Source: a candidate division WWE3 bacterium RIFOXYC1_FULL_40_10 (GTDB taxonomy: Bacteria > Patescibacteriota > WWE3 > UBA101185 > UBA10185). Taken from it: DNA of 64,000 nt. A program made the position numbers and the translations under genes. The stretch is from NCBI GenBank assembly GCA_001773215.1, contig MEWB01000001.1, forward strand, positions 678,099 to 742,098, written 5' to 3'. The notes beneath the pieces are model-generated. The model was given only the letters and a program-made list of their open reading frames with translations. It made no database searches and had not been told where the DNA came from. Below, one piece after another: positions 44,642 to 59,445 of the stretch. Each line of letters begins with the position of its first letter. The first letter of the stretch is position 1.

Positions 44642-44971
44642 TTGGAGGTTGAGATGAAAACGGAAAAGAAGGGTCGCCTGATGGTGGCCTCAATGTTCGG
44701 AACTTTGGTTTTTATTTTGGTAGCAGCGGTAATCGTATATTCGATTCAAAACGCCCTTTTGATCAATGGCACGGGCCCAAATGCTGCTATCAACGCAAGC
44801 GCCTGGATTTTATACTCGCTTATCGGAATCTTCTCCGCGTTTAACATCTTCGGATCACTTCTTCTGGTTTCTATAAGTAAGTGGGAAAATGTGACATATA
44901 AGCAGGCTTTTTGGTTCGGAGTATATCGCGGATGTATCCCAACGATAAAAACCTTGCTGAACAAGTACTGA
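44642..44971 (+). CDS. Small membrane protein (2-3 TM), hypothetical
   Basis: 109 aa, hydrophobic, with a GGAGGT RBS. Confidence 0.3.
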   Translation: MEVEMKTEKKGRLMVASMFGTLVFILVAAVIVYSIQNALLINGTGPNAAINASAWILYSLIGIFSAFNIFGSLLLVSISKWENVTYKQAFWFGVYRGCIPTIKTLLNKY

Positions 44972-44986
44972 TCAAAGGAGTAGGAC

Positions 44987-45268
44987 ATGAACAGTAGTGG
45001 CAAAGGAACTTGGGGTTTTGTCGGGCTTATCATATACCTTGTTCTGAGTATCCTTCTGGGACCGGTTTTGCTGATAAGCAACAGCTATCCCGCTTCCACA
45101 CCCGAGGTTATCTTTCTCATAATAGGCTTCGGATTTTGGGCAGTGGGAATGCTGGGAAACGTTTACGTCGTGACGGAAGAAACAGAAAAAGAACGTCCTA
45201 AATCTCGGTTGCAAATGCTTTTTTTGGGTATTGCGGGATTCGTCAGGATTAGGGAATATTTGGTTTAA
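44987..45268 (+). CDS. Small membrane protein (2 TM), hypothetical
   Basis: 93 aa, hydrophobic, with an AGGAG RBS; followed by a terminator. Confidence 0.3.
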   Translation: MNSSGKGTWGFVGLIIYLVLSILLGPVLLISNSYPASTPEVIFLIIGFGFWAVGMLGNVYVVTEETEKERPKSRLQMLFLGIAGFVRIREYLV

Positions 45269-46551: not shown

Positions 46552-46710
46552 ATGGCAAAAACAAGAAGAACATGGCAACCGAAAAAACACAAAAGAGCAA
46601 AAAAGCACGGATTCTTAAAAAGAATGCGTTCTAACGGCGGTCAAAATATTCTAAAAAGAAGGCGACTTAAAGGCCGAAAGAGACTAGCAGTAAAACCATC
46701 GAGCAAGTGA
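46552..46710 (+). CDS. rpmH: 50S ribosomal protein L34
   Basis: Not in the ORF track (52 aa). Translation [52 protein letters not shown] matches the L34 consensus (M.RT.QP...R...HGFR.RM....G...L..RR.KGRKRL). Confidence 0.85.
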
Positions 46711-46723
46711 TAAAATTCACCCA

Positions 46724-47071
46724 ATGTTAAAAAAAGAAAATAGAATTGTTAGCGACTTTGAATTTAATGTTACCCGCAAACACGGGAAAAAAGTTTTTGG
46801 CAAATATTTCACCTGTTGGCTTTTAACCCCCCGAAACTATTCCGGACCTTTTAAAGCGGGTATAGTAGTGCCCAACAAACTAATTAATGTAGCCCCCAAG
46901 CGTAATTCGCTGAAAAGAAAATACCGGGAACTTATCAGAGCTAATCCCCAATTTTTTAATGATAATTCCTGGTGCGTATTTCATCCGAAACTGGAGGCGT
47001 TGGAAAAAACCTATGAAGAACTTAGTATTGACTTTATTGAAACTTTACAAAAAGTATCTGTCACCGATTAA
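46724..47071 (+). CDS. rnpA: RNase P protein component
   Basis: 115-aa basic protein immediately after rpmH. The N-terminal RIVSDFEF...GK..TCWLL pattern fits RnpA. Confidence 0.7.
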   Translation: MLKKENRIVSDFEFNVTRKHGKKVFGKYFTCWLLTPRNYSGPFKAGIVVPNKLINVAPKRNSLKRKYRELIRANPQFFNDNSWCVFHPKLEALEKTYEELSIDFIETLQKVSVTD

Positions 47072-47225
47072 TTTCGGCCTAAACACTTGCAGATTCACCC
47101 CGAGCTGTGCTGACTATACTATTTTAGCGGTGGAAAAATACGGTGTACCAAAAGGAATAACTATGGGGCTGTGGCGTATAATACGCTGCAACCCTTGGAA
47201 TAAAGGCGGAGTCGACAACCCCTAA
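47013..47225 (+). CDS. yidD: Membrane protein insertion efficiency factor YidD
   Basis: LLKLYKKYLSP...CRFTPSCADYTILAVEKYG..KG..MGLWRIIRCNPW matches the YidD signature. The start is taken at MKNLV (47013); it overlaps the rnpA 3' end. Confidence 0.75.
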   Translation: MKNLVLTLLKLYKKYLSPINFGLNTCRFTPSCADYTILAVEKYGVPKGITMGLWRIIRCNPWNKGGVDNP

Positions 47226-47249
47226 TGTCCAGCGTAGAATAAACCGATT

Positions 47250-48041
47250 ATGATAGTAACTTTATGGAATACGATTTTAATACACCCAACCGTTAACGTG
47301 CTGGCATTACTCCACAGCCTAACAGGAAACTTGGGTATAGCCCTCATAATTTTCACAATACTCGTAAAGATTATAGTAATTCCTGTTACACTCCCACAGA
47401 TGAAAATGGCCAAAAAGCAACGTGAACTGCAACCCGAATTGGAGAAGATCAAAGAAAAATTTAAATACGATAAAAAGAAAATAGCTGAACTGCAATTGGA
47501 ATTATTTAAAAGCCACGGAATCAATCCGGCAAGTGGCTGCCTAACAACCGTTATCACCTTAGTTCTGCTTATAGCCGTATACAATGTAGTCACAATTTTC
47601 ACCAGCGGGAAAGACGTGAGCTCTTTAAATCAAATGCTATATTTCCCTCAGCTTAGATTTGAGTCTCTTAGTCAAATAAATACTAAATTCTTATATTTAG
47701 ACCTCACAAAGCCGGACCCGATATTTTTGATACCAGTTCTGGCTTCGGTTTTACAGATATTAACAACAAAGGTTATGCTTCCAATGTCGAAAGACTTTAA
47801 GAAACAGGCACAAAAGTCTCCTGAAAAAGAAGATGACTTGATGGTAGCGATGCAAAAGCAAAATATGTATCTAATGCCCATAATGTTCTTCGTGATAGGT
47901 TTAAAATTGCCGTCAGGTGCAATGCTGTATATTTTGATATCGACATTACTCCAAATAGTTCAAACGGTGTATTTTAATGGTTGGGGAGACCTGCAACCCT
48001 TGATAACCAAAATAAGAAACCTAGCTCCTAAAAGAATCTAG
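47250..48041 (+). CDS. yidC: Membrane protein insertase YidC (short Gram-positive-type/Oxa1-like form)
   Basis: 263 aa with 5 TM helices. Conserved TM1/2 region LGIALIIFTILVKIIVIPVTLPQMKMAKKQRELQPELEKIKEKFK. Confidence 0.8.
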   Translation: MIVTLWNTILIHPTVNVLALLHSLTGNLGIALIIFTILVKIIVIPVTLPQMKMAKKQRELQPELEKIKEKFKYDKKKIAELQLELFKSHGINPASGCLTTVITLVLLIAVYNVVTIFTSGKDVSSLNQMLYFPQLRFESLSQINTKFLYLDLTKPDPIFLIPVLASVLQILTTKVMLPMSKDFKKQAQKSPEKEDDLMVAMQKQNMYLMPIMFFVIGLKLPSGAMLYILISTLLQIVQTVYFNGWGDLQPLITKIRNLAPKRI

Positions 48042-48080
48042 CTTGAATAAAAACCGTTGCTGTGTTAAAACGTAGAACGT

Positions 48081-48545
48081 ATGAAAAAACAAGACGCAAT
48101 TAAACAAAAATTAACTGACATCTTAAATTTCCTTGATGTAACTCCTGCTGTAGACATTGAATCACCTGAAGAGAATGTTTTTAAAATAGTTATTACCGGC
48201 CAAAATTTGAATCCGTTGATCGGCTTTAGGGGTTATTCTTTGCAGGCTATGGAACACATGTTACAGCTAATGCTGTACCGAGACTTCGATGATGCCTCCA
48301 CTATTGTGTTGGATATTAACGGATACAAGAATCAAAAAGTAGAAAGAATCCATGACTTAGCTAAAAGTTTGATTGATAAGGTAAGATTCCACCAAAGAAA
48401 CGTAGAAATGCCCCCAATGAACCCATGGGAAAGACGCCAAGTTCATATGCTGGTCGGTGAATACGACGACATCGAATCTGAAAGCACAGGAGAAGGCCCT
48501 TCCCGAAGGGTAGTACTCAAACCAAAGAGTTCAACCGGTAAATAA
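48081..48545 (+). CDS. jag: Jag/KhpB-type RNA-binding protein (KH + R3H domains)
   Basis: KH-like segment and an R3H motif (NPWERRQVHMLV) in the conserved position after yidC. Confidence 0.7.
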   Translation: MKKQDAIKQKLTDILNFLDVTPAVDIESPEENVFKIVITGQNLNPLIGFRGYSLQAMEHMLQLMLYRDFDDASTIVLDINGYKNQKVERIHDLAKSLIDKVRFHQRNVEMPPMNPWERRQVHMLVGEYDDIESESTGEGPSRRVVLKPKSSTGK

Positions 48546-48550
48546 AAGTA

Positions 48551-49663
48551 TTGAATATGAAAATAGCTTGCCTGCAGGAAAACTTAGCAAAAGCTTTAGG
48601 TATAGTATCTAAAGCAGTACCAACAAAAGGCGCTTTGCCAATCTTGTCGAATGTTTTAATTACGGCGGAAAAGGGAAAAATTAAATTCGCGGCCACAAAT
48701 CTTGAAACTACAATTATTACTTATTCACAGGGCTCTATCGAAGCTGAGGGTGCAATAACAGTTCCCGCCAAGTTGATCAAGGATTTTATAGCTAACTTAC
48801 CCCAAAATACGATTTCTTTGGAGCTATTGGGAGATAATTTGCATGTTGTGTCGGAAAAAACTAAATCCAAATTTAACGGCATATCGGCAAAAGACTACCC
48901 GGAATTGCCTTCTATATCCAACAAAACCAAATTCATCGAAATTGACCCCAAGGAATTTGCAAACTCAGTAGGAATTGTCGCTTTCGCATCCTCGGTCGAT
49001 GAAGGTCAGCCCCTTTACACAGGAGTATTAATAAAGGTATCAGGGAATGGAATAACATTTGTATCAACAGACGGATTTAGATTATCCGAACGGAGTATTA
49101 AGGTTGAAAACGAGTTCGAAGACGTATCCGCAATTATTTCAGCGAAAACTCTTCTTGAAGTGTCGAGAATATTCGCAAATTTCCCCACACCACTAAAAAT
49201 AGGACTCAGCGACAACGAAAATATGGCAATATTCACTTCTGGAGAGACTTTAGTGGCTACCCGGCTAATAGAGGGGGAATATCCCGATTATAAAAGAATT
49301 ATCCCGGAAAGTGGCGAATTAAACGCCTACTTTGAGGCCGCGCACTTTATGGATGCAGTAAAGCTCACCGATATCTTCGCCAAAAATACAGGAAAACCGA
49401 TAAAACTTATTTTTGACCCCGAAGGAAAGATCAAAATTGCATCATTATCCGCTGATACTGGAGAACATGAGAGCTATATTGAAGCGCGTGTTGAAGGTAA
49501 CCTAACGGAAGTTGCTTTCAATTCGAGATATTTGTTGGAATTTCTAACAAACGTAAAATCAGAAAAAATACACTTACATTCAAACGGCACAACATCACCC
49601 TGCGTTTTAAAACCCGAAGGAATAGATAATTTCCTTCATATTGTAATGCCGGTACAAATTTAG
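48551..49663 (+). CDS. dnaN: DNA polymerase III beta sliding clamp
   Basis: 370 aa with three-domain clamp organisation. N-terminal MKIACLQENLAKALGIVSKAV...PILSNVLI and a C-terminal conserved region. Confidence 0.85.
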   Translation: MNMKIACLQENLAKALGIVSKAVPTKGALPILSNVLITAEKGKIKFAATNLETTIITYSQGSIEAEGAITVPAKLIKDFIANLPQNTISLELLGDNLHVVSEKTKSKFNGISAKDYPELPSISNKTKFIEIDPKEFANSVGIVAFASSVDEGQPLYTGVLIKVSGNGITFVSTDGFRLSERSIKVENEFEDVSAIISAKTLLEVSRIFANFPTPLKIGLSDNENMAIFTSGETLVATRLIEGEYPDYKRIIPESGELNAYFEAAHFMDAVKLTDIFAKNTGKPIKLIFDPEGKIKIASLSADTGEHESYIEARVEGNLTEVAFNSRYLLEFLTNVKSEKIHLHSNGTTSPCVLKPEGIDNFLHIVMPVQI

Positions 49664-51939
49664 ACTAGGTCGTCGGATCCCAAAACATTAGGCAGAGTTT
49701 GCGTACTAGGCCCGGATAAATTACTTGCAGTAGGCTTTGGTGGTACTAAAGGTGGCGGAGTTATTTTCGGCGGAGTGATTTGCGGAGGTTTGGGTGCTGT
49801 AGTAGTTTCCAAAACAGATTTAAGAATAGCTTCCGAAGACGGCATTGCATGTTTTTCCGGATTAGGCTCTGGGCTTACTGCTATGTCTTCCGGCACCACA
49901 CCAAGATTCTTAGTTATTGCACCCGGAGCTGTCCCGCTCCCTCCCAGCACAACAGCGGGTTCTTGTTCTTCGACAACATCAGATACCCTTAAGGGAACAA
50001 AAGGAGCTTTGGGCGCAACCGTAGGTTTTGGAGGCAACGCTTTTGCGGCTAAACCTTCTTCTCTCATTCTTAAAATCTCCTCGGGATTTGTTGTGAGCAA
50101 CCTATTTTCAGCTTCGGAGGCTTTAACTAAAATCGAGACATGGTTCGCTCCGGCGAAAAACAACCCCTCCCCAACTCCTGCCGCTAATAGTAGCCTCTTT
50201 TCACCCTCGGATAGGTAAAAGGTATTTGCTACTTTCTCGATAGCAGCCGGGTGCTGTTTTAGCAGTATCTGGATAGATGAGTTTGTAACAATTGCTTTTC
50301 CGTATTCGGATGTTAAAAAGTCGTCTACATCTTGGGAAATTGTTGTTAGGCCCAAGTAATATTTACGCGCCCTTTTTGCAATCCCATAAATAAACCGTGC
50401 ACTATCTTCGTTTTGCATCAAATACCAAGCTTCTTCTACTATAAGAAGTCTTTTTCTTAAATCCTTTCTAATACGTGTCCAAATAAAATCCAAAATAATA
50501 TAGAAAGCTATTGGCCTCAATGCCTCTTCCAAGTTTTTGGTTGAAAAAACAGTCATCTTACTGGTTAGGTTTATATTTGATTGGGAATCAAAGATTCCCG
50601 TCATGGACCCCTTTATGAACTTCTCTAATCTCTCGGCCATTCCTCTTGCCTCCGGTTCTGCCGCTCCCATTAAAACTTTGTAGAGATCTTCCATTACTGG
50701 CGGTTCCCGTGTTGCCTGCGTTTCCGGATCCGTAGTAATCCCTTTTATTCTATACGCCTCTATTAAAGCCCTATCTAAAATGGCTTCTTCTGTTGGTGTA
50801 AGAGTACCCATCATTAATTTAAGTAGTGTTACAAGAGAAATCAGTTTTTGTCCCAACTCATTTTCACCTTCTACAACGATTCCGGAAAGGTCAAAAGGAT
50901 TAATTTTTGATGGTGAGTTGGCAGAGAAATCGATGTAATTACCACCAACGGCATTACATAATGGGCGATACTCTTCTTCGGGATCTATTACCATTACTTC
51001 GCACCCAAAAACCATTTGGCGCAATGCTTCCAACTTAATAAAATACGACTTACCCGACCCGGATTTGGCGAAAACCACCGAGTTGGCGTTCTCCAATGAA
51101 AACCTATCAAAGATAACTAGCGAACCGTTATGTCTGTTGATTCCATACATAATTCCTTCTTCCATTGTTAGGTCAGAGGATGTGAACGGGAAAGTGGTAG
51201 CTAAACTAGTAGTATCCATGTTTCTGGTTATTAATAGTTTATCTATGCCGGCAGGAATCGAAGACTGGAAGGCTTCTTCCATTTGGAGTGAGGCTTTTTT
51301 GGAAATTAATAACAAAGAACCTAAAGTTGATTCAAGCTTTGATGTTATGTTTTCCAACTCTTCTAAAGTTTCCGCTGACATTGTTATATAAAATGAAAAT
51401 TGGAAATATTTTTCTACCCCTTTTACCAATTGCTCCTGAAGAGCGTTTGCGTCTTCCAACGCAGCAGAAACCACGGGATCAGTGACTCTCCCCTTCTCTT
51501 GATTAGACATCATTGTGGCTTCCAACTCGGTAATTTTTCTTCGTAGGTCATCTAAAATGACCTTTGATTTTACAGGGTAGTAAAACATTGAAAGATCGAG
51601 AGAGTGGTCAAAATTTATTATAGGGGATAACCAATTAGCCCCCACAAATCTGGGATAACCTGCAACAAACAATGTCCTGTAAAAAAGTGATCCCACTCGA
51701 ATAGTATTAAAGTCCACTTCCAAGGCTCCGGGAGCAATAATATCGCGTACATTAATCATACCTTCTGCTAAAACCTGGGAAGGCGATCTTCCCCCAATGG
51801 TATTGTTAGGAGTAGCCTTATGCAGTTTAACTTGGGAATCTGCCTTTTCCATACCATCATAGGCAGGCTCAGTCGACAGATTCGATCTTGATGTGGTACC
51901 TCCCTTTTTGTTAAACATAGTGAAAATATTCAATGCCAT
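49660..51939 (-). CDS. VirB4/TrbE/TraC-family type IV secretion ATPase with a Pro-rich C-terminal tail
   Basis: Middle-domain pattern FYRTLFVAGYPRFV...WLSPIIN, Walker A FAKSGSGKSY, Walker B-like LLIVEEAWYL (DEAW-type). The C-terminal ~140 aa is a Pro/Thr-rich low-complexity tail (PPKPTVAPKAP...PPKITPPPLVPPKP). Confidence 0.7.
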   Translation of the reverse strand: MALNIFTMFNKKGGTTSRSNLSTEPAYDGMEKADSQVKLHKATPNNTIGGRSPSQVLAEGMINVRDIIAPGALEVDFNTIRVGSLFYRTLFVAGYPRFVGANWLSPIINFDHSLDLSMFYYPVKSKVILDDLRRKITELEATMMSNQEKGRVTDPVVSAALEDANALQEQLVKGVEKYFQFSFYITMSAETLEELENITSKLESTLGSLLLISKKASLQMEEAFQSSIPAGIDKLLITRNMDTTSLATTFPFTSSDLTMEEGIMYGINRHNGSLVIFDRFSLENANSVVFAKSGSGKSYFIKLEALRQMVFGCEVMVIDPEEEYRPLCNAVGGNYIDFSANSPSKINPFDLSGIVVEGENELGQKLISLVTLLKLMMGTLTPTEEAILDRALIEAYRIKGITTDPETQATREPPVMEDLYKVLMGAAEPEARGMAERLEKFIKGSMTGIFDSQSNINLTSKMTVFSTKNLEEALRPIAFYIILDFIWTRIRKDLRKRLLIVEEAWYLMQNEDSARFIYGIAKRARKYYLGLTTISQDVDDFLTSEYGKAIVTNSSIQILLKQHPAAIEKVANTFYLSEGEKRLLLAAGVGEGLFFAGANHVSILVKASEAENRLLTTNPEEILRMREEGLAAKALPPKPTVAPKAPFVPLRVSDVVEEQEPAVVLGGSGTAPGAITKNLGVVPEDIAVSPEPNPEKHAMPSSEAILKSVLETTTAPKPPQITPPKITPPPLVPPKPTASNLSGPSTQTLPNVLGSDDLV

Positions 51940-51940
51940 A

Positions 51941-52642
51941 CTATTCCTCTATTATTGCCGGATTCACAATCGCGGTTTGGTAATCATCTACATTAGTCCT
52001 AATCCTTTGACCATGAACGTTGCTGGGATTATAGATATCAAAATATAGCTCCACTAGCTCCTGGGTTGTCATTTGGCGCGCTTTAACCCCAATTCTATTA
52101 AATTCCTTTATCATATGCTCAACTTTGGGATATAGCTCTACAGAACCATTCTTTAGTACGGCATCAGCATCAAACTCAACTCTTTTTGCATGCGATCCTG
52201 TTAGCTTAAAAAACCAATCGAAAGGTCCCGAACCGGGTTGTGCACTTTCAGGCCCGGCGGTCGGGATAACAATAAAAAACCTTTTGTCTAACACATCATT
52301 TTGCTGAACAACCTCCTGAACAAACTTCCTGTACGACTCAGCCTGATGACGTAATAAAGGATCGGTAATTTTATTCTCAATTCTTTGAACTTTATCGATG
52401 TATTTAGTTATATCCAGCCTTTTGGATCTTACAACTATCTGAATAGGGAATGTTATTGAATTTAAGAGCATCGAAAAGGCTGCAATAATGGCGTCTTGTT
52501 CCATCTCCGAAAGTAAGTCGAAGTTTACAGCGTTAGTTTGAAGCACTGCACAGACTACAGAGTTTTTAAGCACCACCAAATTATCTTTAATATCATAGAT
52601 ATCTAAATGATCTTGAGTTGTTGCTGTTATATTATCTGCCAT
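51941..52642 (-). CDS. Separately encoded VirB4 N-terminal-domain-like protein
   Basis: 233 aa. LDIYDIKDNLVVLKNSVVCAVLQTNAVNFDLLSEMEQDAIIAAFSMLLNSI resembles the extreme N-terminal domain of VirB4/TrbE. Its stop lies 1 nt from the ATPase start (translational coupling). Confidence 0.4.
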   Translation of the reverse strand: MADNITATTQDHLDIYDIKDNLVVLKNSVVCAVLQTNAVNFDLLSEMEQDAIIAAFSMLLNSITFPIQIVVRSKRLDITKYIDKVQRIENKITDPLLRHQAESYRKFVQEVVQQNDVLDKRFFIVIPTAGPESAQPGSGPFDWFFKLTGSHAKRVEFDADAVLKNGSVELYPKVEHMIKEFNRIGVKARQMTTQELVELYFDIYNPSNVHGQRIRTNVDDYQTAIVNPAIIEE

Positions 52643-52649
52643 ATTTACA

Positions 52650-54122
52650 TCACCTTCCTGTAATTTGTATAGGAGGAATTACATCTCCTTTAACCTCTAC
52701 TGAAATTATATCAAAGGTTAGACCAGTATCATTAATTGGACTCACCTCGATAGTATACACACCTTCCGTCAAGGGTGTCGTTAGGATAAATTGACCCAAC
52801 TTGTTCGATTTGAAGGCCCTAACAGCCTCGCCGTTACTGTTTTTGATAATTAACAATACATTAGGTATCCCATCGCCAACAACTCCGGATACAATATTTG
52901 GCTTGGTGGTTAGAGGTGGTATTTTAGCCAAATGCACATACCCTCTAGGTTCGGCAACTACAGCAGCATTAACTTTTTCTTCAAGCTGTTTTTGCAAATC
53001 AGCAATTTGCTTACTCAACGCCTCATAATCTTGTGCTGACTTACTTTTTTCAAGCTCCAACTTTTTAAGAAGATCCTCTTGTGTTGCTGTATCAAGAGCT
53101 TTTTGTTTGGCAGTCTCAATCTCCGATTTCAAACTCTCTATTTGGTCATCTATATCTTGATTTTGTTCTTTAAGTTTATCCGCCAAGTCTTCAGCTTCCT
53201 TATTTAGCCTTTCGGGAGCTACCTGAGTCTGCGGAGTTGCAGGCCTGGCTATTTTTACTCTCTCTGTCTGCTGAATTTGGCCTAACAACTGCTGTAATTT
53301 AGCTGCTTTATCGGCAACATCTTCATCAGCCAATCGCATAGTTTGAGCATCTTGGGACAAAACCTTTTCTCCCCTGATAGGCAAAAACAACTCCCCCTGA
53401 GAAGGCAACAAGCTGGTAAATCTTCTGCCGGAATGCATGTCGGGAGTAATTGGCACGTGAGTATCGAATCCTTCAGGCTCTTGAGCTTGCGGAGGAGGAG
53501 CGACAGCCGGCTGTACATGTTCGGAAATTACAGGTGCCGGAGGAAGCTCATCTTCCGCGAAAATATCATCAACACCGACTGCAACAGGTGCAGGTGGAGG
53601 GGGTAAATCAAGCGCAGGTAATGAAGCGTAAATATTTGCAACTTTGGAAATATATTCTTCCTCCGGAATATCCAGGGGGTCTCTGGGGCCTTTTTGTATG
53701 GAGTGCGTAAGATACTCCTCAAGTTTCCTCCGGCTGGAAGTAGGCGCAAGAGTTATCATCTCTTGTCTAACCATATCTACACTTGCCATTGCGAAAGGCT
53801 TAAGTACAAAAACTTCCTTCTTCCAAATCCTCTGGGTAGGTGTGTAAACTGCTTTTACAAAATTAACTATCCACTGATCAAGGCCTCTTTCTTCGACAGG
53901 TATAAAAGCTAAGCCAATACCAAGCCCTGCTGATAAAATAAAAAGTGGAATTTTAAAAATGCCTGTAGGTAGAATCAACATCAGGTACGCCATCCCGCCG
54001 AATATCAGTACGTAGGCAAATTGTCTCATGGTTAAGTCCCCAATTAACTTGAATTCCACGTCCATGATGTTTTGGGGGACTGCATGCTGTGTATTTGTTT
54101 GAATGTTATCTCTTATGGGCAT
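52650..54122 (-). CDS. Membrane protein with N-terminal TM hairpin (VirB3-like?), Pro-rich linker, long coiled coil and C-terminal beta-sandwich domain
   Basis: 490 aa. Two N-terminal TM helices (MRQFAYVLIFGGMAYLMLILP...FILSAGLGIGLAFIP), a PPPAPV repeat linker, a ~120-aa Q/E/K-rich coiled coil, and a C-terminal ~100-aa beta-rich domain (VYTIEVSP...). Confidence 0.35.
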   Translation of the reverse strand: MPIRDNIQTNTQHAVPQNIMDVEFKLIGDLTMRQFAYVLIFGGMAYLMLILPTGIFKIPLFILSAGLGIGLAFIPVEERGLDQWIVNFVKAVYTPTQRIWKKEVFVLKPFAMASVDMVRQEMITLAPTSSRRKLEEYLTHSIQKGPRDPLDIPEEEYISKVANIYASLPALDLPPPPAPVAVGVDDIFAEDELPPAPVISEHVQPAVAPPPQAQEPEGFDTHVPITPDMHSGRRFTSLLPSQGELFLPIRGEKVLSQDAQTMRLADEDVADKAAKLQQLLGQIQQTERVKIARPATPQTQVAPERLNKEAEDLADKLKEQNQDIDDQIESLKSEIETAKQKALDTATQEDLLKKLELEKSKSAQDYEALSKQIADLQKQLEEKVNAAVVAEPRGYVHLAKIPPLTTKPNIVSGVVGDGIPNVLLIIKNSNGEAVRAFKSNKLGQFILTTPLTEGVYTIEVSPINDTGLTFDIISVEVKGDVIPPIQITGR

Positions 54123-54143
54123 TTATTCCCTAATTTTAGCGGA

Positions 54144-57100
54144 TTATTGGAGTTTAACAATATATCTAACATCCTTATCTAAAACCCCGGTATCCTCTAC
54201 CAAATTATTCTTCTGCTCCAAATTACTGCTAAATTGATTAAGCGTCATTCCAAACGGGGCATTAAACTTAAAGTTAAACACATCGTCGTGTGTACCCGAC
54301 TGCTTTTGCCACAACATAGTATAATCCTGAAAGTCTTTAGTTATAGATAATCCTTCAGGCAAATCGTAATTTAGCAAAAGAGTTAAACTGCTTGTTGGCT
54401 CAAGCTTAAATGTGGTTTCAAACGACGAATACCTTCCTACGCTTGATACCCTTATTCTATCAAAAATATCCAGTGTAGTGTTGTCTTTATAAATAAATTT
54501 AGCACCAGTAAGTTTTGACCCTGCCTGAGTTAATACTCTAACATAATTTGTGTAGGGGCCGCCGGGCCACGCATCCCCTTCTCCGGTGTGTTTATAGTTT
54601 AGTGCTAATGTTCCTCTTAATATCCCGTCTCTGGTTAAAGAATCCACTTCGTATTCCATCGTGTTCTGTACATAGTAGTTTGCTTTTGTTCCGCCCAAAT
54701 TAGCATTTACCACTTGTAAATAATCTCCTTCGGAATCAGCTAAACTTCCATCCCAATTTCTACTCTTAAGAAATGCGTTTAATGAACTGTTTTTAAAATA
54801 AATTTGAAAATGTCTCTCATCCAAAGATTTTTCGATCGACCCCAGAAGAGGTGAGATTTTATCTTTTGGAGTGGCAAAGATTTTCTCGAGCAGTTTACTG
54901 CCTAAAACAGTTAAAAACCCTCTTTTGGCATCCGAGCCGGCTTCAAAATTAAAATCACTGTGGTACTGAGTTCTCTCATATAAATTCTCGGATGTAATTT
55001 GTTCATCGTATGCAGCTAAAAATAAAGGCCCTGTTACATTTATTAATTCCTTTGCAAAAGATAAATCAACAGCTAAATAGCCATCGATATCTTCTCCGGT
55101 CACTCTGTAATACAAGTCATCAAAAGCCACCACCGAACTTGGAAAATCCGGACTCCAGTTTGAGTTTCTCAGATGCAATCCATTTTCTCCTAAAAGCTCC
55201 GCAATAGGGGACGGAGATGGCACCGAAATTCCCCTAAGATCTATTTGGCCATCCGGATTATAAATGTCGTCAATTGTTAAATCCTTGAGTTTTCCGTTTT
55301 CAAAGGTTAGCAGGCCATAGGATCCTATAAACCCTCCTGTGGGGCGTATCTCGTTTGAATTTTGGAACCAAACCATATATGTCTTTTTCGAGGAGGCACC
55401 TAATATTTGCGGGAGATCTGCTACCACCGCAGAGGCAAGCACCAAGCCGGAATCGATCTGTTCAAGATATACTCCGTATACTCTTGCCGGTTCCTGAAGT
55501 TTTTCCGGCAAGTCGGGAATTGAGATGTTTTTAAAATCCGCACTGGCTAACCCTATTGTGTTTCGAGCATTTAACAATGAAAACTTTGCGCTATCAAAAT
55601 ATGAGGAATCCATGGTTTCATCCGTATCGGGACGGATTATAGCCCAAAGAGCTTCCATGGGTTTTACTACATCCGCCAATTCCTCACCGGATTTCGAGAA
55701 GTTTATCAACGAACTAAGCAATCTATAGGTAGCGTTATATTGCTCCTTTTTACCGGAAATTTTAAAAAGCCACTTGACCTTAACCAAATAAGACCTTGAA
55801 GATGTGAAATCCTCAGTGGCAGTCTTGAGATTGTTTTTTATCTGCTCCGAATCAAAATGGTTGGAAGGATCCCTAACAGCCATTAACGCTAATTTCCCAT
55901 GTTCTGCCTTAGAGAAAACTTGAAAAACGGGAAATACGACAAAGGTAATAACGGCAGCAGCTAAAATTGCTCCGATAGTTAAAGACCTGCTCACTTTTGG
56001 GGACACTGAATGAGCTGTGATTCGGGGAAGAGCCCCTGTTGTTTTAATACCTTTGCGAACTATGTCTCTAAGTTTTTTAATTAACTCCCCCACCGGATTT
56101 CTTTTGTTTATGTATGGGTAAGGGTTCGGAGAAAAACTGGTTGGCACATTGGCGGCCGGAGCCTTGAATCCGGGTTCGTAGGCATATATGGGCATGGGGG
56201 TAGTCGCGATAGGCGGTGCGGTTACAGCCCTGCTGGCTATGTGATCTTGAATATATCTTGCAGGTTTAAATGAAAGTGAGTTTACTTTATAACCAAACCA
56301 GGACAGAGTCTTCACTATTCCCTCTTTTAGTGCAACCTTAGGCTCCCAAGCCAGGTCTCCCAGGTTAAATGTATCAACATCGCGAGGACCCTGTTTAACC
56401 GGGGAAAGATAGGGTGAATATTTAACATCCAACTCGGCATCCGCCATGCTCTTGACTAGATAGGCCACTTCTAGAACGGAAACAGGTTCTCCTCCTACCA
56501 AGGAATAAATATTCCCTTTAGTCACAGGATTAAATAGGGCCTTCAAAATTCCTGCTATGGCGTCTTCGATGTATAAGTAAAATTCTTTATCAGTTCCGTC
56601 ACCCCTAACACTAATGTCTCTTCGCTCAATCAAATCTTTCAAAAAGCTGCCAATCGAACCGCTGGCATCCAAATTCATGTTTGGTCCATATATTTCTGGG
56701 AGACGAGCCACCCTTATATCGAGTTTGTATCTGTGGTAGTACTGCCAAACCAACGCCTCAGAAAATCTTTTGGCCTCGGTGAGGCTAAATTTGTTGTCCT
56801 CAAATGAGCTAAATCCAAAATACTTGTCGATGCTTAGCTGAGACATTCTCCCTTGGTACACATCGATGGTGGAAGCAAGTAAAAATTTAGCCTCGGATTT
56901 CTTGGCGAGGTCCAAAAGATTTTTCACACCCAATGAATTTGTTAATAAGGAATCCAAGTTTAGATACTCTTTGCTGTACAGATATTCTTCTAAACTGGCC
57001 AAGTGGATTATATAGTCAACACTATCTATATCACTTGGAATACCTTCGTTAATATCCACATCGTACAATGCAAAATTTGGATTGTTCATTAAATGCTGAA

Positions 57101-57260
57101 TATTTACTTGCTTTCCGGTCTGAAAATTATCTAAGGCAATAACCCTTGCTCCTTTGTCGAGCAAAGCTTGTGCTAGGTGGGAACCTATAAAACCGGCACC
57201 TCCTGAAATAAGTGCTGTCGGTATGAGTGCTGTTTTTCTTATTACTTGATCTTTGGGCAT
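54144..57260 (-). CDS. Fusion protein: NAD-dependent sugar epimerase/dehydratase domain, a TM helix, and a large extracytoplasmic domain of unknown function
   Basis: 1038 aa. N-terminal ~330 aa SDR epimerase (ISGGAGFIGSHL, YxxxK). Single TM helix (LTIGAILAAAVITFVVFPVF). The remaining ~600 aa are hydrophilic with the motif WFQNSNEIRPTGGFIGSYG. First gene of the VirB4 operon. Confidence 0.55.
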   Translation of the reverse strand: MPKDQVIRKTALIPTALISGGAGFIGSHLAQALLDKGARVIALDNFQTGKQVNIQHLMNNPNFALYDVDINEGIPSDIDSVDYIIHLASLEEYLYSKEYLNLDSLLTNSLGVKNLLDLAKKSEAKFLLASTIDVYQGRMSQLSIDKYFGFSSFEDNKFSLTEAKRFSEALVWQYYHRYKLDIRVARLPEIYGPNMNLDASGSIGSFLKDLIERRDISVRGDGTDKEFYLYIEDAIAGILKALFNPVTKGNIYSLVGGEPVSVLEVAYLVKSMADAELDVKYSPYLSPVKQGPRDVDTFNLGDLAWEPKVALKEGIVKTLSWFGYKVNSLSFKPARYIQDHIASRAVTAPPIATTPMPIYAYEPGFKAPAANVPTSFSPNPYPYINKRNPVGELIKKLRDIVRKGIKTTGALPRITAHSVSPKVSRSLTIGAILAAAVITFVVFPVFQVFSKAEHGKLALMAVRDPSNHFDSEQIKNNLKTATEDFTSSRSYLVKVKWLFKISGKKEQYNATYRLLSSLINFSKSGEELADVVKPMEALWAIIRPDTDETMDSSYFDSAKFSLLNARNTIGLASADFKNISIPDLPEKLQEPARVYGVYLEQIDSGLVLASAVVADLPQILGASSKKTYMVWFQNSNEIRPTGGFIGSYGLLTFENGKLKDLTIDDIYNPDGQIDLRGISVPSPSPIAELLGENGLHLRNSNWSPDFPSSVVAFDDLYYRVTGEDIDGYLAVDLSFAKELINVTGPLFLAAYDEQITSENLYERTQYHSDFNFEAGSDAKRGFLTVLGSKLLEKIFATPKDKISPLLGSIEKSLDERHFQIYFKNSSLNAFLKSRNWDGSLADSEGDYLQVVNANLGGTKANYYVQNTMEYEVDSLTRDGILRGTLALNYKHTGEGDAWPGGPYTNYVRVLTQAGSKLTGAKFIYKDNTTLDIFDRIRVSSVGRYSSFETTFKLEPTSSLTLLLNYDLPEGLSITKDFQDYTMLWQKQSGTHDDVFNFKFNAPFGMTLNQFSSNLEQKNNLVEDTGVLDKDVRYIVKLQ

Positions 57261-57347
57261 TACGGGCAGTTCGTATCAATAAATACGTAATTTCCTAAAT
57301 TATAGATAGTACGCGGAAGTATTACAATGGCTTTTTACTGTGATATG

Positions 57348-59168
57348 TTAGGAAAATCTCGCGTAAACTCTCACTTTTCCTTCTCCCATTTTTTCTTGTT
57401 TGAATATTTCGATCGGTTGTAATTTACAAGTGTTATCAACATGGGGACCACCGCAAAACTCCTTGCTAAGAGAGCTCTCCAGGGATGAACCTACATAGTA
57501 AACCTTTACCTCGTCGGGATATGTCTCATGTTCCAGGTATCCTGCACCTGCTTCGATGGCTTTGTCTTTAGACAGCATAACAAAATTGACCGGATAACAC
57601 GCTCTTATGGCGTCGTTAACTAAAGCTGTTACTTTCTTTATTTCTTCGTCTGTGAGCTTACGATGGTGAGTGAAATCAAATCTCAGTCTCTCAGATGTGA
57701 TGTTGCTTCCAACTTGCTTTACGTGGTTGCCCAAAACGTCTTGCAATGCCATTTGGAGCAGGTGGGTAGTAGTGTGGTATTTTACAACCGTTTCACTACT
57801 ATCAGCCAAACCTCCCTTAAATTTCTTTTCCGCCCCTAAACGAGACATATCCTGATGTTTTCCGGCAACCTCATTATAAACCCGCTCAAAAGCCTGTAAA
57901 TCGACAGTTGCGGCCTTATCATCTAGATCAGCCAAAAACATCTCTACGGGATACCCAAGAGATTGGTACATATCAAAGGCTTTGGAGGCTAGTTCCTCTA
58001 AATTACTTGTATCCAGAGTGGCATACAACCTTTCAAACTCCCTACTTCCTTTTTGGAGAGTTCTCCAAAACTTATCTTCCTCCAAACTAAACACTTCTTG
58101 GATTTCCGTCCTTCTCTGAACTAAACTCGGATATAACCACTCAAACAGCTCGCAAACAATAGGCACTAGATTTACCGAAATATCTTTTTCAACTCCTAAA
58201 TTCCTGCCGTTTCGTACCATTCTCCTTAATAGCCTCCTTAGGATATAACCCTGATCTTTGTTTGACGGCATAACCCCATCCATGGCCAGAAAAACACATG
58301 CTCTTATGTGATCGGCGATTATTCTCATTGATTTGGTTATTGTCTCGGAATCTCGGTAGTTTTTTTGGCTTAGTTGCTCTATTTTTTGGATTATAGGATA
58401 GAAATTGTCTGTTTCAAAAATATCTGATTTGTTTTGTACAACCATCGCCAGCCTTTCCAAGCCTCCGCCGAAATCAACATTCTTCTGAGCCAATTCCCTC
58501 CAACCTGATTCAGTCATTTGATATTGCATAAAGACCGAATTGCCAACTTCTAAGAACAAATCGTCATTTTCACCGGGTACTAAACCAAGCTTTGGCTCAC
58601 CGTCCCCGATGTAGTAAAAAACCTCACTATCAGGTCCTCCAAGCTCCCCAATGGCTTCACCCCTCTGCCACCAGCATTGATCTTTTCCGCACGCAAACAA
58701 TCTCTCGTTTTCCTTTGCTTCAACTCCATACTTAGCAAAAATTTGTTGTAACAAAAGCAAAGTATTCTCATCCCTCGGAGAATCTTTGTCTCCTGCAAAA
58801 AAAGTCGCAAATAGCCTTTTCGGATCCAACTTTACCTGCTCAATCAAAAACTCATATGCCCATGGGAGTTGTTCCTTTTTAAAATAATCATTCAAACTCC
58901 AATTGCCTATCATATGAAAAGCAAAAGTATGGGTTTTATCTCCTATCTCGTTGATATCATCCAAGCGGATAGCTCGTTGAACATTGACTAAACGACTCCC
59001 TAAAGGATGTGGCTCTCCCGAAAGATAAGGCACCAATGGAAACATCCCCGAATTCACAAACAAAAGGGTGGGATCGCCTTCGGGGACTAGGGAAACATTA
59101 GGGATTTGCTTATGGCCCCTGGACTTGTAAAACTCAAGGTAAAGTTCTAATATCTGTTTAGTCTGCAT
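57348..59168 (-). CDS. alaS: Alanine--tRNA ligase, compact form (catalytic and editing domains, no C-Ala domain)
   Basis: Class II aaRS core (FVNSGMFPLVPY; RLVNVQRAIRLDDINEIGDKTHTFAFHMIGNWSLNDYFK) and editing-domain motifs HTTTHLL and CGGPHV. Only 606 aa versus ~870 typical. Confidence 0.8.
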   Translation of the reverse strand: MQTKQILELYLEFYKSRGHKQIPNVSLVPEGDPTLLFVNSGMFPLVPYLSGEPHPLGSRLVNVQRAIRLDDINEIGDKTHTFAFHMIGNWSLNDYFKKEQLPWAYEFLIEQVKLDPKRLFATFFAGDKDSPRDENTLLLLQQIFAKYGVEAKENERLFACGKDQCWWQRGEAIGELGGPDSEVFYYIGDGEPKLGLVPGENDDLFLEVGNSVFMQYQMTESGWRELAQKNVDFGGGLERLAMVVQNKSDIFETDNFYPIIQKIEQLSQKNYRDSETITKSMRIIADHIRACVFLAMDGVMPSNKDQGYILRRLLRRMVRNGRNLGVEKDISVNLVPIVCELFEWLYPSLVQRRTEIQEVFSLEEDKFWRTLQKGSREFERLYATLDTSNLEELASKAFDMYQSLGYPVEMFLADLDDKAATVDLQAFERVYNEVAGKHQDMSRLGAEKKFKGGLADSSETVVKYHTTTHLLQMALQDVLGNHVKQVGSNITSERLRFDFTHHRKLTDEEIKKVTALVNDAIRACYPVNFVMLSKDKAIEAGAGYLEHETYPDEVKVYYVGSSLESSLSKEFCGGPHVDNTCKLQPIEIFKQEKMGEGKVRVYARFS

Positions 59169-59217: not shown

Positions 59218-59445
59218 ATGGGAACCTCGGAGAATGTCACCGTACCATTGTTACTGATTTCACTTTGGTTCATTTTGTTGGGAGGCTTACTGGCGAAAGC
59301 AGTCATAGACAAGGCGGGGTTTTTGGCGCTGGTGCTGGGAACAATTGCCGTTCTGCTTGTATTTCCCTGCTTACTGAATCTAAAAATAAAAGCAATAAGT
59401 TTTGTCAACAAGGTTTATGGCTTCTTTTTCGGAAGATTTCAATAA
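59218..59445 (+). CDS. Small membrane protein (2 TM), hypothetical
   Basis: An AAGGAG RBS precedes the ATG at 59218. Hydrophobic, 75 aa, followed by a terminator. Confidence 0.35.
   Translation: MGTSENVTVPLLLISLWFILLGGLLAKAVIDKAGFLALVLGTIAVLLVFPCLLNLKIKAISFVNKVYGFFFGRFQ

What the first reader, a model, noticed from the sequence alone, without database searches (positions are those of the whole stretch)
49660..57260. Compact four-gene operon built around a VirB4-like ATPase with unusual partners and no VirB6/VirD4 in the vicinity
Four genes on the minus strand are separated by 21, 7 and 1 nt. (1) A 1038-aa fusion of a sugar-nucleotide epimerase, one TM helix and a ~600-aa ectodomain. (2) A 490-aa protein with an N-terminal TM hairpin (position and shape reminiscent of VirB3), a PPPAPV linker, a long coiled coil and a beta-sandwich-like end. 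(3) A 233-aa protein resembling only the extreme N-terminal domain of VirB4. (4) A 759-aa VirB4/TrbE-type ATPase (Walker A SGSGKSY, DEAW-like Walker B) carrying a ~140-aa Pro/Thr-rich tail. No relaxase, coupling protein, VirB6 channel or pilin is adjacent; the flanks are alaS and a convergent dnaN. The cluster therefore does not look like a conjugative element. It may be a minimal envelope-spanning translocation or DNA-uptake apparatus, or a surface-structure assembly ATPase. The split VirB4 N-terminus and the Pro-rich tail are atypical.
Basis: partly seen in the sequence, partly recalled or inferred. Interest (0 to 1): 0.65.

Follow-up and report, generated by a model that had tools for sequence, protein, structure and literature searches.

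The report
Patescibacterial type IV secretion core genes
This is the chromosomal core (membrane anchor, small helper protein and motor ATPase) of the type IV secretion system that ultra-small CPR/Patescibacteria carry near their replication genes; that system was described in 2023-2025, so this WWE3 copy is a new member of a known kind.

Summary
The four minus-strand genes exist exactly as described. Three of them form the known core of the Patescibacteria type IV secretion system (T4SS), which derives from the MPF-FATA class of monoderm systems:
- a PrgI/VirB3-family membrane protein (490 aa);
- a TrsD-type protein resembling the VirB4 N-terminal domain (233 aa);
- a CD1110-family VirB4 ATPase (759 aa).

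They sit beside rpmH-rnpA-yidC-jag-dnaN, with no relaxase, coupling protein, VirB6 or pilin in the window or 8.5 kb beyond it. This matches Quinonero-Coronel et al. 2025 and Wang et al. 2023. The organism is a candidate division WWE3 bacterium (RIFOXYC1_FULL_40_10).

The split VirB4 N-terminus is normal for this class, and Bacillota plasmids have it too. The trio is syntenic in about 60 WWE3 and Microgenomatia genomes. The VirB4 core is 78-87% identical across the WWE3 genomes, while dnaN is only 38-55%.

The fourth gene is a WWE3-specific neighbour, not a general T4SS part. Its "epimerase" domain is a UDP-xylose-synthase paralogue that has lost the catalytic tyrosine.

Local peculiarities:
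- PrgI carries a coiled coil and a CnaB/transthyretin-like domain.
- The VirB4 tail holds conserved short motifs.
- Deeper WWE3 relatives carry pilin arrays and a polytopic membrane protein where this clade has alaS and the DUF4012 gene.

Interest is modest.

The parts
49660..51939 (-). virB4: T4SS ATPase, 759 aa. Disordered N-terminal leader at residues 1-55. Conserved core at residues 56-630 (nt 50050-51774). Variable tail at residues 631-759.
   Evidence: NF045971 conju_CD1110 scores 372 bits (cutoff 325) over profile positions 184-733; P-loop_TraG 3e-29. Best solved relative is 4AG5, the Thermoanaerobacter VirB4 C-terminal domain, at 2e-49; TrwK is 4e-5. The core is 78-87% identical across the WWE3 loci and 57-68% in Microgenomatia-type loci.
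51043..51063 (-). Walker A motif SGSGKSY (VirB4 residues 293-299).
50425..50448 (-). Walker B-like motif LLIVEEAW (VirB4 residues 498-505).
49663..50049 (-). VirB4 C-terminal Pro/Ala/Val/Thr-rich tail (129 aa). It contains the conserved short motif PSSEAILKSVLE at residues ~700-711 (nt 49807-49842).
   Evidence: Tails of 34-313 aa occur in WWE3 loci and 0-149 aa in the more distant loci (0-82 aa in those titled Levyibacteria); their sequence is otherwise unconserved. The motif [EDAS][IL][LM]xS[VI] occurs in 22 of 39 WWE3 tails, against 0.1 expected from shuffles. A near-terminal G[TS][IFL]x[LI] motif occurs in 21 of 38, against 0.34 expected. Both patterns were chosen after seeing the data.
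51941..52642 (-). trsD-like gene: a free-standing 233-aa protein resembling the VirB4 N-terminal domain. It is probably translationally coupled to virB4 (1-nt gap, GAGGAA 6 nt upstream of the virB4 ATG).
   Evidence: It matches NF045975 profile positions 104-220 (3.6e-11), NF041427 TrsD/TraD (4e-7) and TIGR00929 positions 18-124. VirB4 itself matches positions 274-890 and 243-725 of the same profiles. Precomputed Pfam is PF26593 TraC-like. The AF2 model (pLDDT 61.6) gives its top 14 PDB fold hits all to TrwK/VirB4 of R388, E 3e-3 to 5e-2; the next hit is E 0.85. It is about 70% identical across WWE3.
52650..54122 (-). prgI-like (VirB3 analogue) gene, 490 aa. PrgI domain at residues 15-99 (nt 53826-54080) with a TM hairpin at residues ~34-76 (nt 53895-54023). 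Conserved helical region to residue 166. Pro-rich disordered linker at residues 167-257 (nt 53352-53624). Coiled coil at residues 257-389 (nt 52956-53354). Beta-sandwich at residues 405-490 (nt 52653-52910).
   Evidence: PF12666 PrgI 6.9e-9, 36.6 bits against a cutoff of 27. AF2 model. The beta-sandwich matches CnaB/transthyretin-like domains (UafA, TIE, CnaB2, carboxypeptidase D) at E 3e-4. Most homologues carry PF12666 plus PF13620. The N- and C-terminal domains are conserved into Microgenomatia loci; the middle is not.
54144..57260 (-). WWE3-specific upstream gene, 1038 aa. Cytoplasmic UXS-like SDR domain lacking the catalytic Tyr at residues 16-325 (nt 56286-57215). Pro-rich linker. One TM at residues ~423-452 (nt ~55905-55994). 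Ectodomain of about 590 aa with DUF4012 at residues 625-764 (nt 54969-55388).
   Evidence: Pfam Epimerase 6e-30 and DUF4012 3e-24. hUXS1 match 4e-42 with Leu at the catalytic Tyr position. Tyr is absent in 118 of 118 homologues, while GxxGxxG and Lys are kept. All top-120 homologues except two shorter gene calls (P0241, P0297) show the same architecture. It lies directly upstream of prgI in about 30 close WWE3 loci and is absent from deeper WWE3 and Microgenomatia loci.
57299..57327 (-). Promoter-like site TTGTAA-17-TATAAT in the 87-nt alaS-to-fusion-gene spacer. It is a possible operon promoter.
   Evidence: 10 of 12 consensus matches. The region as a whole has no more promoter-like sites than shuffles do, so this is weak evidence.
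46552..49663 (+). Context genes: rpmH (46552-46710), rnpA (46724-47071), yidC (47250-48041), jag/R3H (48081-48545) and dnaN (48551-49663). They are convergent with virB4.
   Evidence: This neighbourhood is conserved in WWE3 loci and is reported as typical for Patescibacteria virB4 (PMC12102498).

Best explanation
The locus is the cytoplasmic-membrane core module of the Patescibacteria-type T4SS, in a candidate division WWE3 genome. This system derives from MPF-FATA, the monoderm conjugation-machine class.

Shown by homology:
- a VirB4 ATPase with intact Walker motifs;
- a separately encoded TrsD protein that corresponds to the part of the VirB4 N-terminal domain the ATPase itself lacks;
- a PrgI/VirB3-family hairpin membrane protein.

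Inferred from the solved R388 system and from Gram-positive T4SS biology:
- PrgI anchors a VirB4 (plus TrsD) hexamer to the inner face of the membrane.
- ATP hydrolysis by that hexamer drives assembly of, and transport through, a T4SS channel or pilus.
- The remaining parts (VirB2-like pilins, a VirB6-like polytopic protein, wall hydrolase) are encoded elsewhere in this genome.

The system is chromosomal and vertically inherited. It has no relaxase or coupling protein nearby, so it most likely serves the epibiotic lifestyle (exchange of macromolecules with a host cell) rather than conjugation.

The upstream SDR-TM-DUF4012 gene is a WWE3 envelope protein with a catalytically dead, probably ligand-binding, cytoplasmic domain. 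It is probably co-transcribed but is not a general T4SS component.
For: - Family assignments.
- Complementary, non-overlapping matches of the 233-aa and 759-aa proteins to the same VirB4 profiles.
- Fold match of the 233-aa model to TrwK/VirB4 only.
- Closest solved ATPase is from a Firmicute.
- Closest plasmid homologues are Bacillota and Actinomycetota at 30-38% identity, with a trsD-like ORF directly upstream; in Pontibacillus the order is pilin-like, 779 aa, 116 aa, 274 aa, VirB4, peptidase.
- The order prgI-trsD-virB4 is kept in about 60 WWE3 and Microgenomatia loci, nearly always beside dnaN.
- The VirB4 core (78-87%) and TrsD (58-73%) are far more conserved than dnaN (38-55%) or yidC in the same genomes, implying strong purifying selection.
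- Levyibacteria and deeper WWE3 loci hold 4-5 PF18895 pilin genes and polytopic membrane proteins in the same cluster.
- Published description of exactly this kind of locus: PMC12102498.
- T4SS genes are essential in Southlakia: PMC10633639, reviewed in PMC12857230.
- G+C is uniform.
Against: - No pilin, VirB6-like, VirB8-like, VirB1-like or T4CP gene was found in the 64-kb window or 8.5 kb beyond it.
- I could not search the rest of the genome, so 'the other parts are elsewhere' is an assumption.
- No function of any Patescibacteria T4SS has been demonstrated biochemically.
- No WWE3 organism is cultured.
- The TrsD model has only moderate confidence (pLDDT 61.6), and its fold hits have modest TM-scores (0.41).
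Confidence: 0.8

Rival explanations
1. The four genes form a self-contained, minimal VirB4-powered envelope machine. In this WWE3 subclade the pilus and VirB6 parts have been lost, and the ATPase trio now works with the DUF4012 membrane protein, for example in DNA uptake, surface-polymer export or envelope assembly.
For: - The spacing is tight and the order is conserved in about 30 genomes, with the DUF4012 gene directly upstream of prgI.
- In deeper WWE3 relatives a block of pilins, a ~1080-aa protein and a ~470-aa polytopic protein lies upstream of prgI, where this subclade has alaS and the DUF4012 gene.
- No other T4SS part lies within about +/-20 genes.
Against: - The DUF4012 protein has a single TM helix and no channel-like features.
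- It has no detectable link to T4SS in any other lineage.
- According to the 2025 survey, about 40% of Patescibacteria genomes with VirB2-like pilins encode them away from virB4.
- Adjacency in one clade can be a neutral rearrangement.
Confidence: 0.12
2. The locus is a decayed remnant of an integrated conjugative element. Its relaxase, coupling protein and channel genes have been deleted, and it is non-functional.
For: The gene set is homologous to conjugation genes of monoderm plasmids and ICEs. No relaxase or T4CP is present.
Against: - All ORFs are intact, with catalytic motifs.
- The chromosomal position is the same in dozens of genomes from WWE3 and Microgenomatia.
- VirB4 and TrsD are more conserved than neighbouring housekeeping genes.
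- No integrase is present, and there is no compositional anomaly.
- The homologous system is essential in Southlakia.
Confidence: 0.03
3. The ATPase is a generic HerA/FtsK-type translocase that is unrelated to type IV secretion.
For: Weak DUF87/HerA (29 bits) and AAA_10 Pfam matches. CedB and CedD matches at 36 and 23 bits.
Against: The VirB4-specific equivalog NF045971 passes its curated cutoff (372 against 325). TraC, VirB4_CagE and P-loop_TraG all score far higher than HerA. The partners are PrgI and TrsD.
Confidence: 0.01

Closest known systems
Patescibacteria (CPR) T4SS, as surveyed by Quinonero-Coronel et al. 2025 (PMC12102498) and shown essential in Southlakia epibionticum by Wang et al. 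2023 (PMC10633639)
   Same: - An MPF-FATA-like VirB4 with an adjacent TrsD and an adjacent PrgI/VirB3.
- No relaxase and no nearby coupling protein.
- A chromosomal position next to dnaN, rnpA and rpmH.
- Vertical inheritance within a class.
   Different: - No VirB2-like pilin array, VirB6 or hydrolase lies within about 20 genes.
- PrgI carries a ~390-aa extension (Pro-rich linker, coiled coil, CnaB/transthyretin-like domain).
- VirB4 carries a 129-aa tail with conserved short motifs.
- A pseudo-UXS-DUF4012 gene sits upstream.
- WWE3 genomes do not appear in that survey's genome table as held here. NCBI files WWE3 outside the 'Patescibacteria group'.
pGO1/pSK41-type Trs conjugation system of staphylococci (an MPF-FATA subclass with TrsC, TrsD and TrsE)
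   Same: It has a separate TrsD protein homologous to the VirB4 N-terminus, next to a VirB4 ATPase and a VirB3-like protein. NF041427 TrsD/TraD matches at 4e-7.
   Different: It is plasmid-borne and conjugative, with a relaxase, a coupling protein, a VirB1-like hydrolase and channel proteins. The score here is below the family cutoff (30 against 200 bits), so the relation is remote.
Relaxase-less T4SS-like clusters on Bacillota megaplasmids, for example Pontibacillus sp. ALD_SL1 NZ_CP062975
   Same: These are the best plasmid matches: VirB4 38% identical and the TrsD-like protein 25%. The order is small protein, TrsD-like, VirB4 (CD1110 family).
   Different: That cluster also holds a pilin-like gene (Mbov_0395 family), a 779-aa protein and a large peptidoglycan endopeptidase. 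The gene at the PrgI position encodes only 116 aa; it is annotated hypothetical and I did not test its family.
R388 Trw / Agrobacterium VirB T4SS inner-membrane complex (VirB3-VirB4)
   Same: The same ATPase fold and motifs. The TrsD model matches only TrwK chains in the PDB. A VirB3-like hairpin protein is the presumed anchor.
   Different: It is a diderm system with an outer-membrane core complex, VirB2/VirB5 pilus, VirB6, VirB8, VirB11 and VirD4. VirB4 is a single polypeptide. Sequence similarity is very low (E 4e-5).

Membership tests
Patescibacteria-clade T4SS (MPF-FATA-derived) | A VirB4 ATPase of the MPF-FATA lineage with intact Walker A and B motifs. | tested here: met
   NF045971 scores 372 bits against a cutoff of 325. 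4AG5 matches at 2e-49. Motifs. All close relatives are from WWE3, Microgenomatia or unclassified Patescibacteria MAGs.
Patescibacteria-clade T4SS (MPF-FATA-derived) | The VirB4 falls inside the monophyletic Patescibacteria clade of the VirB4 tree. | not tested
   I built no reference tree with the eight MPF classes. The only indirect evidence is that the nearest homologues are all CPR genomes and that the non-CPR homologues found on plasmids are at most 38% identical.
Patescibacteria-clade T4SS (MPF-FATA-derived) | A TrsD homologue encoded next to virB4. | tested here: met
   the gap to virB4 is 1 nt.
Patescibacteria-clade T4SS (MPF-FATA-derived) | A VirB3/PrgI homologue encoded next to virB4. 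| tested here: met
   PF12666 scores 36.6 bits against a cutoff of 27; a TM hairpin is present.
Patescibacteria-clade T4SS (MPF-FATA-derived) | No associated relaxase; the coupling protein is absent or distant. | tested here: met
   No such Pfam family is on record for any gene of the window or the next 8.5 kb.
Patescibacteria-clade T4SS (MPF-FATA-derived) | VirB2-like pilin genes (often in arrays) and a VirB6-like protein, frequently near virB4. | tested here: not met
   None in the window by Pfam or by custom HMMs at E<10. They are present in sister loci. The rest of the genome could not be searched. The survey itself finds these genes away from virB4 in many genomes, so this feature is frequent rather than strictly defining.
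Patescibacteria-clade T4SS (MPF-FATA-derived) | A chromosomal location near dnaN, dnaA, rnpA and rpmH (in most classes). | tested here: met
   rpmH-rnpA-yidC-jag-dnaN lie immediately downstream. dnaA is not in the window.
Conjugative MPF-FATA T4SS (plasmid or ICE) | A relaxase and a VirD4/TcpA-type coupling protein are associated with the mating-pair genes. | tested here: not met
   The locus is fixed in the chromosome across genomes.
Conjugative MPF-FATA T4SS (plasmid or ICE) | VirB6-like (PrgH), VirB8-like (PrgL) and VirB1-like (PrgK/TrsG) genes lie in the cluster. | tested here: not met
   None are detected next to the trio.
Archaeal Ced DNA-import system | A CedB ATPase with CedA/CedA1/CedA2 membrane partners. 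| tested here: not met
   NF041017 CedB scores 35.8 bits against a cutoff of 700. No Ced partners were identified.
Active UDP-glucuronate decarboxylase / extended SDR epimerase-dehydratase (N-terminal domain of the 1038-aa protein) | A catalytic Ser/Thr-Tyr-Lys triad (YxxxK). | tested here: not met
   Leu replaces Tyr in the query. Tyr is absent in 118 of 118 homologues. Lys and the GxxGxxG motif are retained. An intact UXS paralogue lies at window 5764-6723.

The most novel reading that the evidence does not exclude
In one WWE3 subclade the Patescibacteria T4SS may have been stripped to a three-protein membrane ATPase module and re-coupled to a different envelope protein. The module would be PrgI with a coiled-coil/CnaB-like extension, TrsD, and VirB4 with a motif-bearing tail. 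The new partner would be the pseudo-UXS-TM-DUF4012 fusion, whose dead SDR domain could sense a nucleotide sugar. The result would be a VirB4-powered machine with no pilus and no VirB6 channel.
Probability: 0.1. Interest if true: 0.7.

Novelty: new member of a known kind. Interest (0 to 1): 0.3.

Why it matters
The Patescibacteria T4SS is essential for epibiotic growth in the one species tested, and its function is still unknown. This WWE3 locus extends the described system to a class that appears to be missing from the 2025 survey.

It also offers some testable handles:
- an extremely conserved VirB4/TrsD pair;
- a PrgI with an extra coiled coil and beta-sandwich;
- conserved short motifs in an otherwise disordered VirB4 tail;
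- a clade in which the pilin/polytopic-protein block found upstream of prgI in deeper WWE3 relatives is absent and alaS plus a pseudo-enzyme-DUF4012 gene lie there instead.

None of this changes the general picture. It is a useful data point, not a discovery.

Tried and rejected
- HerA/FtsK classification of the ATPase was rejected.
- A pseudogene split of VirB4 was rejected. The two-ORF arrangement is conserved in every locus where both genes are complete, and on Bacillota and Actinomycetota plasmids.
- An ICE remnant was rejected.
- Small two-TM ORFs at 44654-45268, 59218-59445 and 20365-20592 were tested as VirB2-like pilins. They have no Pfam match and no match to a pilin HMM built from 65 related pilins.
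- Unannotated polytopic proteins at 14702-17061 were considered as VirB6 candidates. They have no support and lie 33 kb away.
- The large unannotated protein at 29075-32989 has no family match.
- Sequence searches of the 233-aa and 490-aa proteins against the PDB found nothing. The DUF4012 ectodomain likewise.
- I tried to find WWE3 entries or DUF4012 in the 2025 paper's text and tables and found none.
- A lookup of the 1304-aa ORF failed because the called gene starts elsewhere.
- The Rfam scan found only tRNA-Pro.
- The promoter and terminator scan gave no enrichment over shuffles.

Full report
**Observation.**
- 54144-57260 (1038 aa)
- 52650-54122 (490 aa)
- 51941-52642 (233 aa)
- 49660-51939 (759 aa)

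The gaps are 21, 7 and 1 nt. alaS lies upstream on the same strand. dnaN is convergent and overlaps the last gene's stop.

Every described motif is present: Walker A SGSGKSY (293-299), LLIVEEAW (498-505), a 129-aa Pro-rich tail, PPPAPV (175-180), two adjacent hydrophobic helices in the 490-aa protein, and one TM helix (~423-452) in the 1038-aa protein. RBS-like sequences sit just before virB4 and the 233-aa gene. G+C is the same as in the flanks.

**Identity of the organism.** Identical proteins are deposited as A3K34_03990 and A3K34_03985 of 'candidate division WWE3 bacterium RIFOXYC1_FULL_40_10'. The window lies on a 226-kb scaffold of a metagenome assembly named ANAN16-1 in ENA. The 63 related loci from GTDB species genomes are mostly titled WWE3. 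More distant ones are titled Levyibacteria, Woesebacteria or Gottesmanbacteria. Several carry MAG titles such as 'Saccharibacteria', 'Gammaproteobacteria' or 'Pseudomonadales'.

**Identity of the genes.**
- *ATPase.* It passes the curated cutoff of NCBIfam NF045971, 'VirB4-like conjugal transfer ATPase, CD1110 family' (372 against 325 bits). It also matches TraC, VirB4_CagE and P-loop_TraG. HerA/DUF87 reaches only 29 bits. Its closest solved relative is the VirB4 C-terminal domain of the Firmicute Thermoanaerobacter (4AG5, 2e-49); R388 TrwK is at 4e-5.
- *233-aa protein.* It matches the N-terminal part of VirB4 profiles: NF045975 positions 104-220 and TIGR00929 positions 18-124. It also matches TrsD/TraD (4e-7). 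The ATPase matches positions 274-890 and 243-725 of those same profiles, so the two proteins are complementary. A moderate-confidence AlphaFold2 model (pLDDT 61.6) has its top 14 PDB fold hits all to TrwK/VirB4 chains, with nothing else below E 0.85.
- *490-aa protein.* It has a PrgI domain, the Gram-positive VirB3 analogue, above Pfam's cutoff at residues 15-99.
- *1038-aa protein.* It has an SDR 'Epimerase' domain and DUF4012.

**Comparison with the literature.** This is the published signature of the Patescibacteria T4SS. Quinonero-Coronel et al. 2025 (PMC12102498) report the following:
- VirB4 is present in 2,417 of 3,035 genomes and forms a clade nested in MPF-FATA.
- PrgI/VirB3 usually lies next to virB4.
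- Relaxases are almost always absent, and coupling proteins are rarely nearby.
- dnaN, dnaA, rnpA and rpmH are the commonest neighbours.

Wang et al. 2023 (PMC10633639) showed that the T4SS genes are essential for epibiotic growth of Southlakia. They noted the missing relaxase and coupling protein. This is reviewed in PMC12857230. A 2026 preprint suggests that T4SS-like tubes contact host cells.

In the window, rpmH-rnpA-yidC-jag-dnaN lie immediately downstream of virB4. The split N-terminus also occurs outside the CPR. The best plasmid matches (Pontibacillus, Brevibacillus, Carboxydocella, Miltoncostaea and others) have a trsD-like ORF directly upstream of virB4. The Pontibacillus cluster reads pilin-like, 779 aa, 116 aa, 274 aa, VirB4, peptidoglycan endopeptidase.

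**Synteny and selection.** The order prgI-trsD-virB4 is kept in essentially all loci that are long enough, from WWE3 to Microgenomatia, usually beside dnaN. Identity to the window in the WWE3 loci:

| Protein | Identity |
|---|---|
| VirB4 core | 78-87% |
| TrsD | 58-73% |
| dnaN | 38-55% |
| yidC | 43-59% |

These T4SS proteins are therefore under stronger constraint than neighbouring housekeeping genes. That argues against a decaying mobile-element remnant.

**What is and is not nearby.**
- In loci titled Levyibacteria or with similarly distant VirB4 (57-62% identity to the window), the trio is preceded by four or five PF18895 T4SS-pilin genes and followed by further membrane proteins.
- In deeper-branching WWE3 loci (L034, L035, L064, L065) it is preceded by 4-5 pilins, a ~1080-aa protein and a ~470-aa polytopic membrane protein.
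- In the window's subclade (about 30 loci) that upstream block is absent, and alaS plus the SDR-DUF4012 gene lie there instead.
- HMMs built from the pilins and from each of the other cluster families find nothing among all window ORFs of at least 40 aa, even at E<10.
- Precomputed Pfam annotation of every called gene in the window and the next 8.5 kb shows no T4SS family other than the trio.
- I could not search the rest of the genome. Whether the missing parts are elsewhere or lost remains open. The 2025 survey finds pilins away from virB4 in roughly 40% of pilin-bearing genomes, so 'elsewhere' is the default expectation.

**The fourth gene.** All but two of the top-120 homologues share the SDR-TM-DUF4012 architecture; the two exceptions (P0241, P0297) are shorter gene calls recorded with DUF4012 only. 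All hits named by a source come from WWE3 or Patescibacteria.

The SDR domain is most similar to UDP-glucuronate decarboxylase (human UXS1, 4e-42), but Leu stands at the catalytic Tyr position. In 118 homologues the position is L, V, M, A or Q and never Y, while GxxGxxG and the catalytic Lys are invariant. The UXS Glu, Asn and Arg positions are replaced by Asp, Glu and Gly in nearly all homologues (115-117 of 118). A canonical UXS with all these residues is encoded at 5764-6723 in the same window.

The domain is therefore most likely a non-catalytic, possibly nucleotide-binding module. It is tethered by a Pro-rich linker and one TM helix to a ~590-aa DUF4012 ectodomain. DUF4012 has been linked only loosely to exopolysaccharide loci (PMC6744442).

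Its adjacency to prgI is clade-specific. I therefore treat it as a probably co-transcribed neighbour, not as an established T4SS subunit.

**Local peculiarities of the trio.**
- *PrgI extension.* PrgI here is 490 aa, not ~100 aa. The AF2 model shows the hairpin, a conserved helical region to residue ~166, a disordered Pro-rich stretch, long helices (257-389) and a confident beta-sandwich (412-487). The sandwich matches CnaB/transthyretin-like domains of Gram-positive surface proteins and carboxypeptidase D. Most homologues carry PF12666 plus PF13620. The terminal domain is conserved into Microgenomatia. A hairpin puts both termini on one side of the membrane. By analogy with VirB3, which can be fused to the N-terminus of VirB4, that side should be the cytoplasm. 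The CnaB-like fold is more usual outside the cell, so the topology needs testing.
- *VirB4 tail.* The tail varies from 34 to 313 aa in WWE3 and is otherwise unconserved. It contains a recurrent motif P[ST]xx[DE]I[LM]xSV[E]. A search pattern for the core of this motif hits 22 of 39 tails, including the window's PSSEAILKSVLE. It often also contains a near-terminal GT[IF]xLG (21 of 38). Both are far above shuffled expectation, although I chose the patterns after inspecting the data. A disordered tether with docking motifs is the natural reading. The partner is unknown.

**Mechanism.** Three components are shown by homology: an ATPase, its detached N-terminal-domain-like partner and a VirB3-type anchor. 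By analogy with the R388 inner-membrane complex and Gram-positive systems, I infer that PrgI recruits TrsD plus a VirB4 hexamer to the membrane, where ATP hydrolysis powers assembly of, or transport through, a T4SS. In this lineage that system serves interaction with a host cell rather than conjugation. The substrate and the direction of transport are unknown for all Patescibacteria.

**Novelty.** No paper in the searchable library mentions WWE3 together with VirB4. The 2025 survey's genome table, as held here, contains no WWE3 entry. The likely reason is that NCBI files WWE3 outside the 'Patescibacteria group'. The locus is thus a new member of a known kind, with some clade-specific variations. 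It is not a new kind of system.

Noticed in passing
window 56286-57215 (-); comparison gene at window 5764-6723 (-): The SDR domain of the 1038-aa protein is a UXS paralogue. The catalytic Tyr is replaced by Leu, and it is never Tyr in 118 homologues. The NAD-binding glycines and the catalytic Lys are kept. An intact UXS with all catalytic residues is encoded elsewhere in the window. The fused domain is probably a pseudo-enzyme or ligand sensor attached to DUF4012.
   Followed up: yes
window 49663-50049 (-), especially 49807-49842: The disordered VirB4 tail carries conserved short motifs across WWE3: P[ST]xx[DE]I[LM]xSV[E] and, near the C-terminus, GT[IF]xLG. More distant relatives, including Levyibacteria-titled loci, end in IPGFSDFDQNK instead. 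This suggests a tethered docking peptide. The patterns were chosen after seeing the data.
   Followed up: partly
L034, L035, L064, L065 (upstream of prgI) compared with window 54144-59168: Deeper WWE3 relatives have 4-5 T4SS-pilin genes, a ~1080-aa protein and a ~470-aa polytopic membrane protein upstream of prgI. The window's subclade has alaS and the SDR-DUF4012 gene there, and no homologue of those proteins anywhere in the 64 kb.
   Followed up: partly
window 46552-49663 (+): rpmH-rnpA-yidC-jag-dnaN are co-directional, with no dnaA between jag and dnaN and none anywhere in the window. Cumulative GC skew falls almost steadily, with no lasting turning point. The gene set usually found near a replication origin is therefore present without dnaA and without an obvious skew switch.
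   Followed up: no
locus table (L004-L066): The VirB4 core (78-87% identity) and TrsD (58-73%) are much more conserved among WWE3 genomes than dnaN (38-55%) or yidC (43-59%) in the same loci.
   Followed up: partly
window 28204-33567 (-): There are three consecutive genes (298 aa, ~1300 aa, 197 aa) with no Pfam match. They lie next to DsbA-like and glycosyltransferase genes, and their function is unknown.
   Followed up: no
window 14702-17061 (-): Two adjacent polytopic membrane proteins (322 aa with ~5 hydrophobic segments; 463 aa with ~9-10) have no family match.
   Followed up: no
window 44654-45268 (+) and 59218-59445 (+): Small two-TM proteins (105, 93 and 75 aa) lie near the locus. They match neither Pfam T4SS_pilin nor a pilin HMM built from related loci.
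   Followed up: yes
literature / taxonomy: NCBI taxonomy places candidate division WWE3 under 'Bacteria candidate phyla', outside the 'Patescibacteria group'. The 2025 T4SS survey's genome table, as held here, contains no WWE3 genome, so this class seems not to have been covered.
   Followed up: partly
window 59539-60729 (+) and the whole window: The neighbourhood is rich in envelope and glycan genes: a PEGA+SH3 protein, Wzy_C, YfhO, two glycosyltransferases beyond it, two further SDR epimerases, FtsEX plus an M23 peptidase, and an ABC-2 transporter with DUF4340.
   Followed up: no
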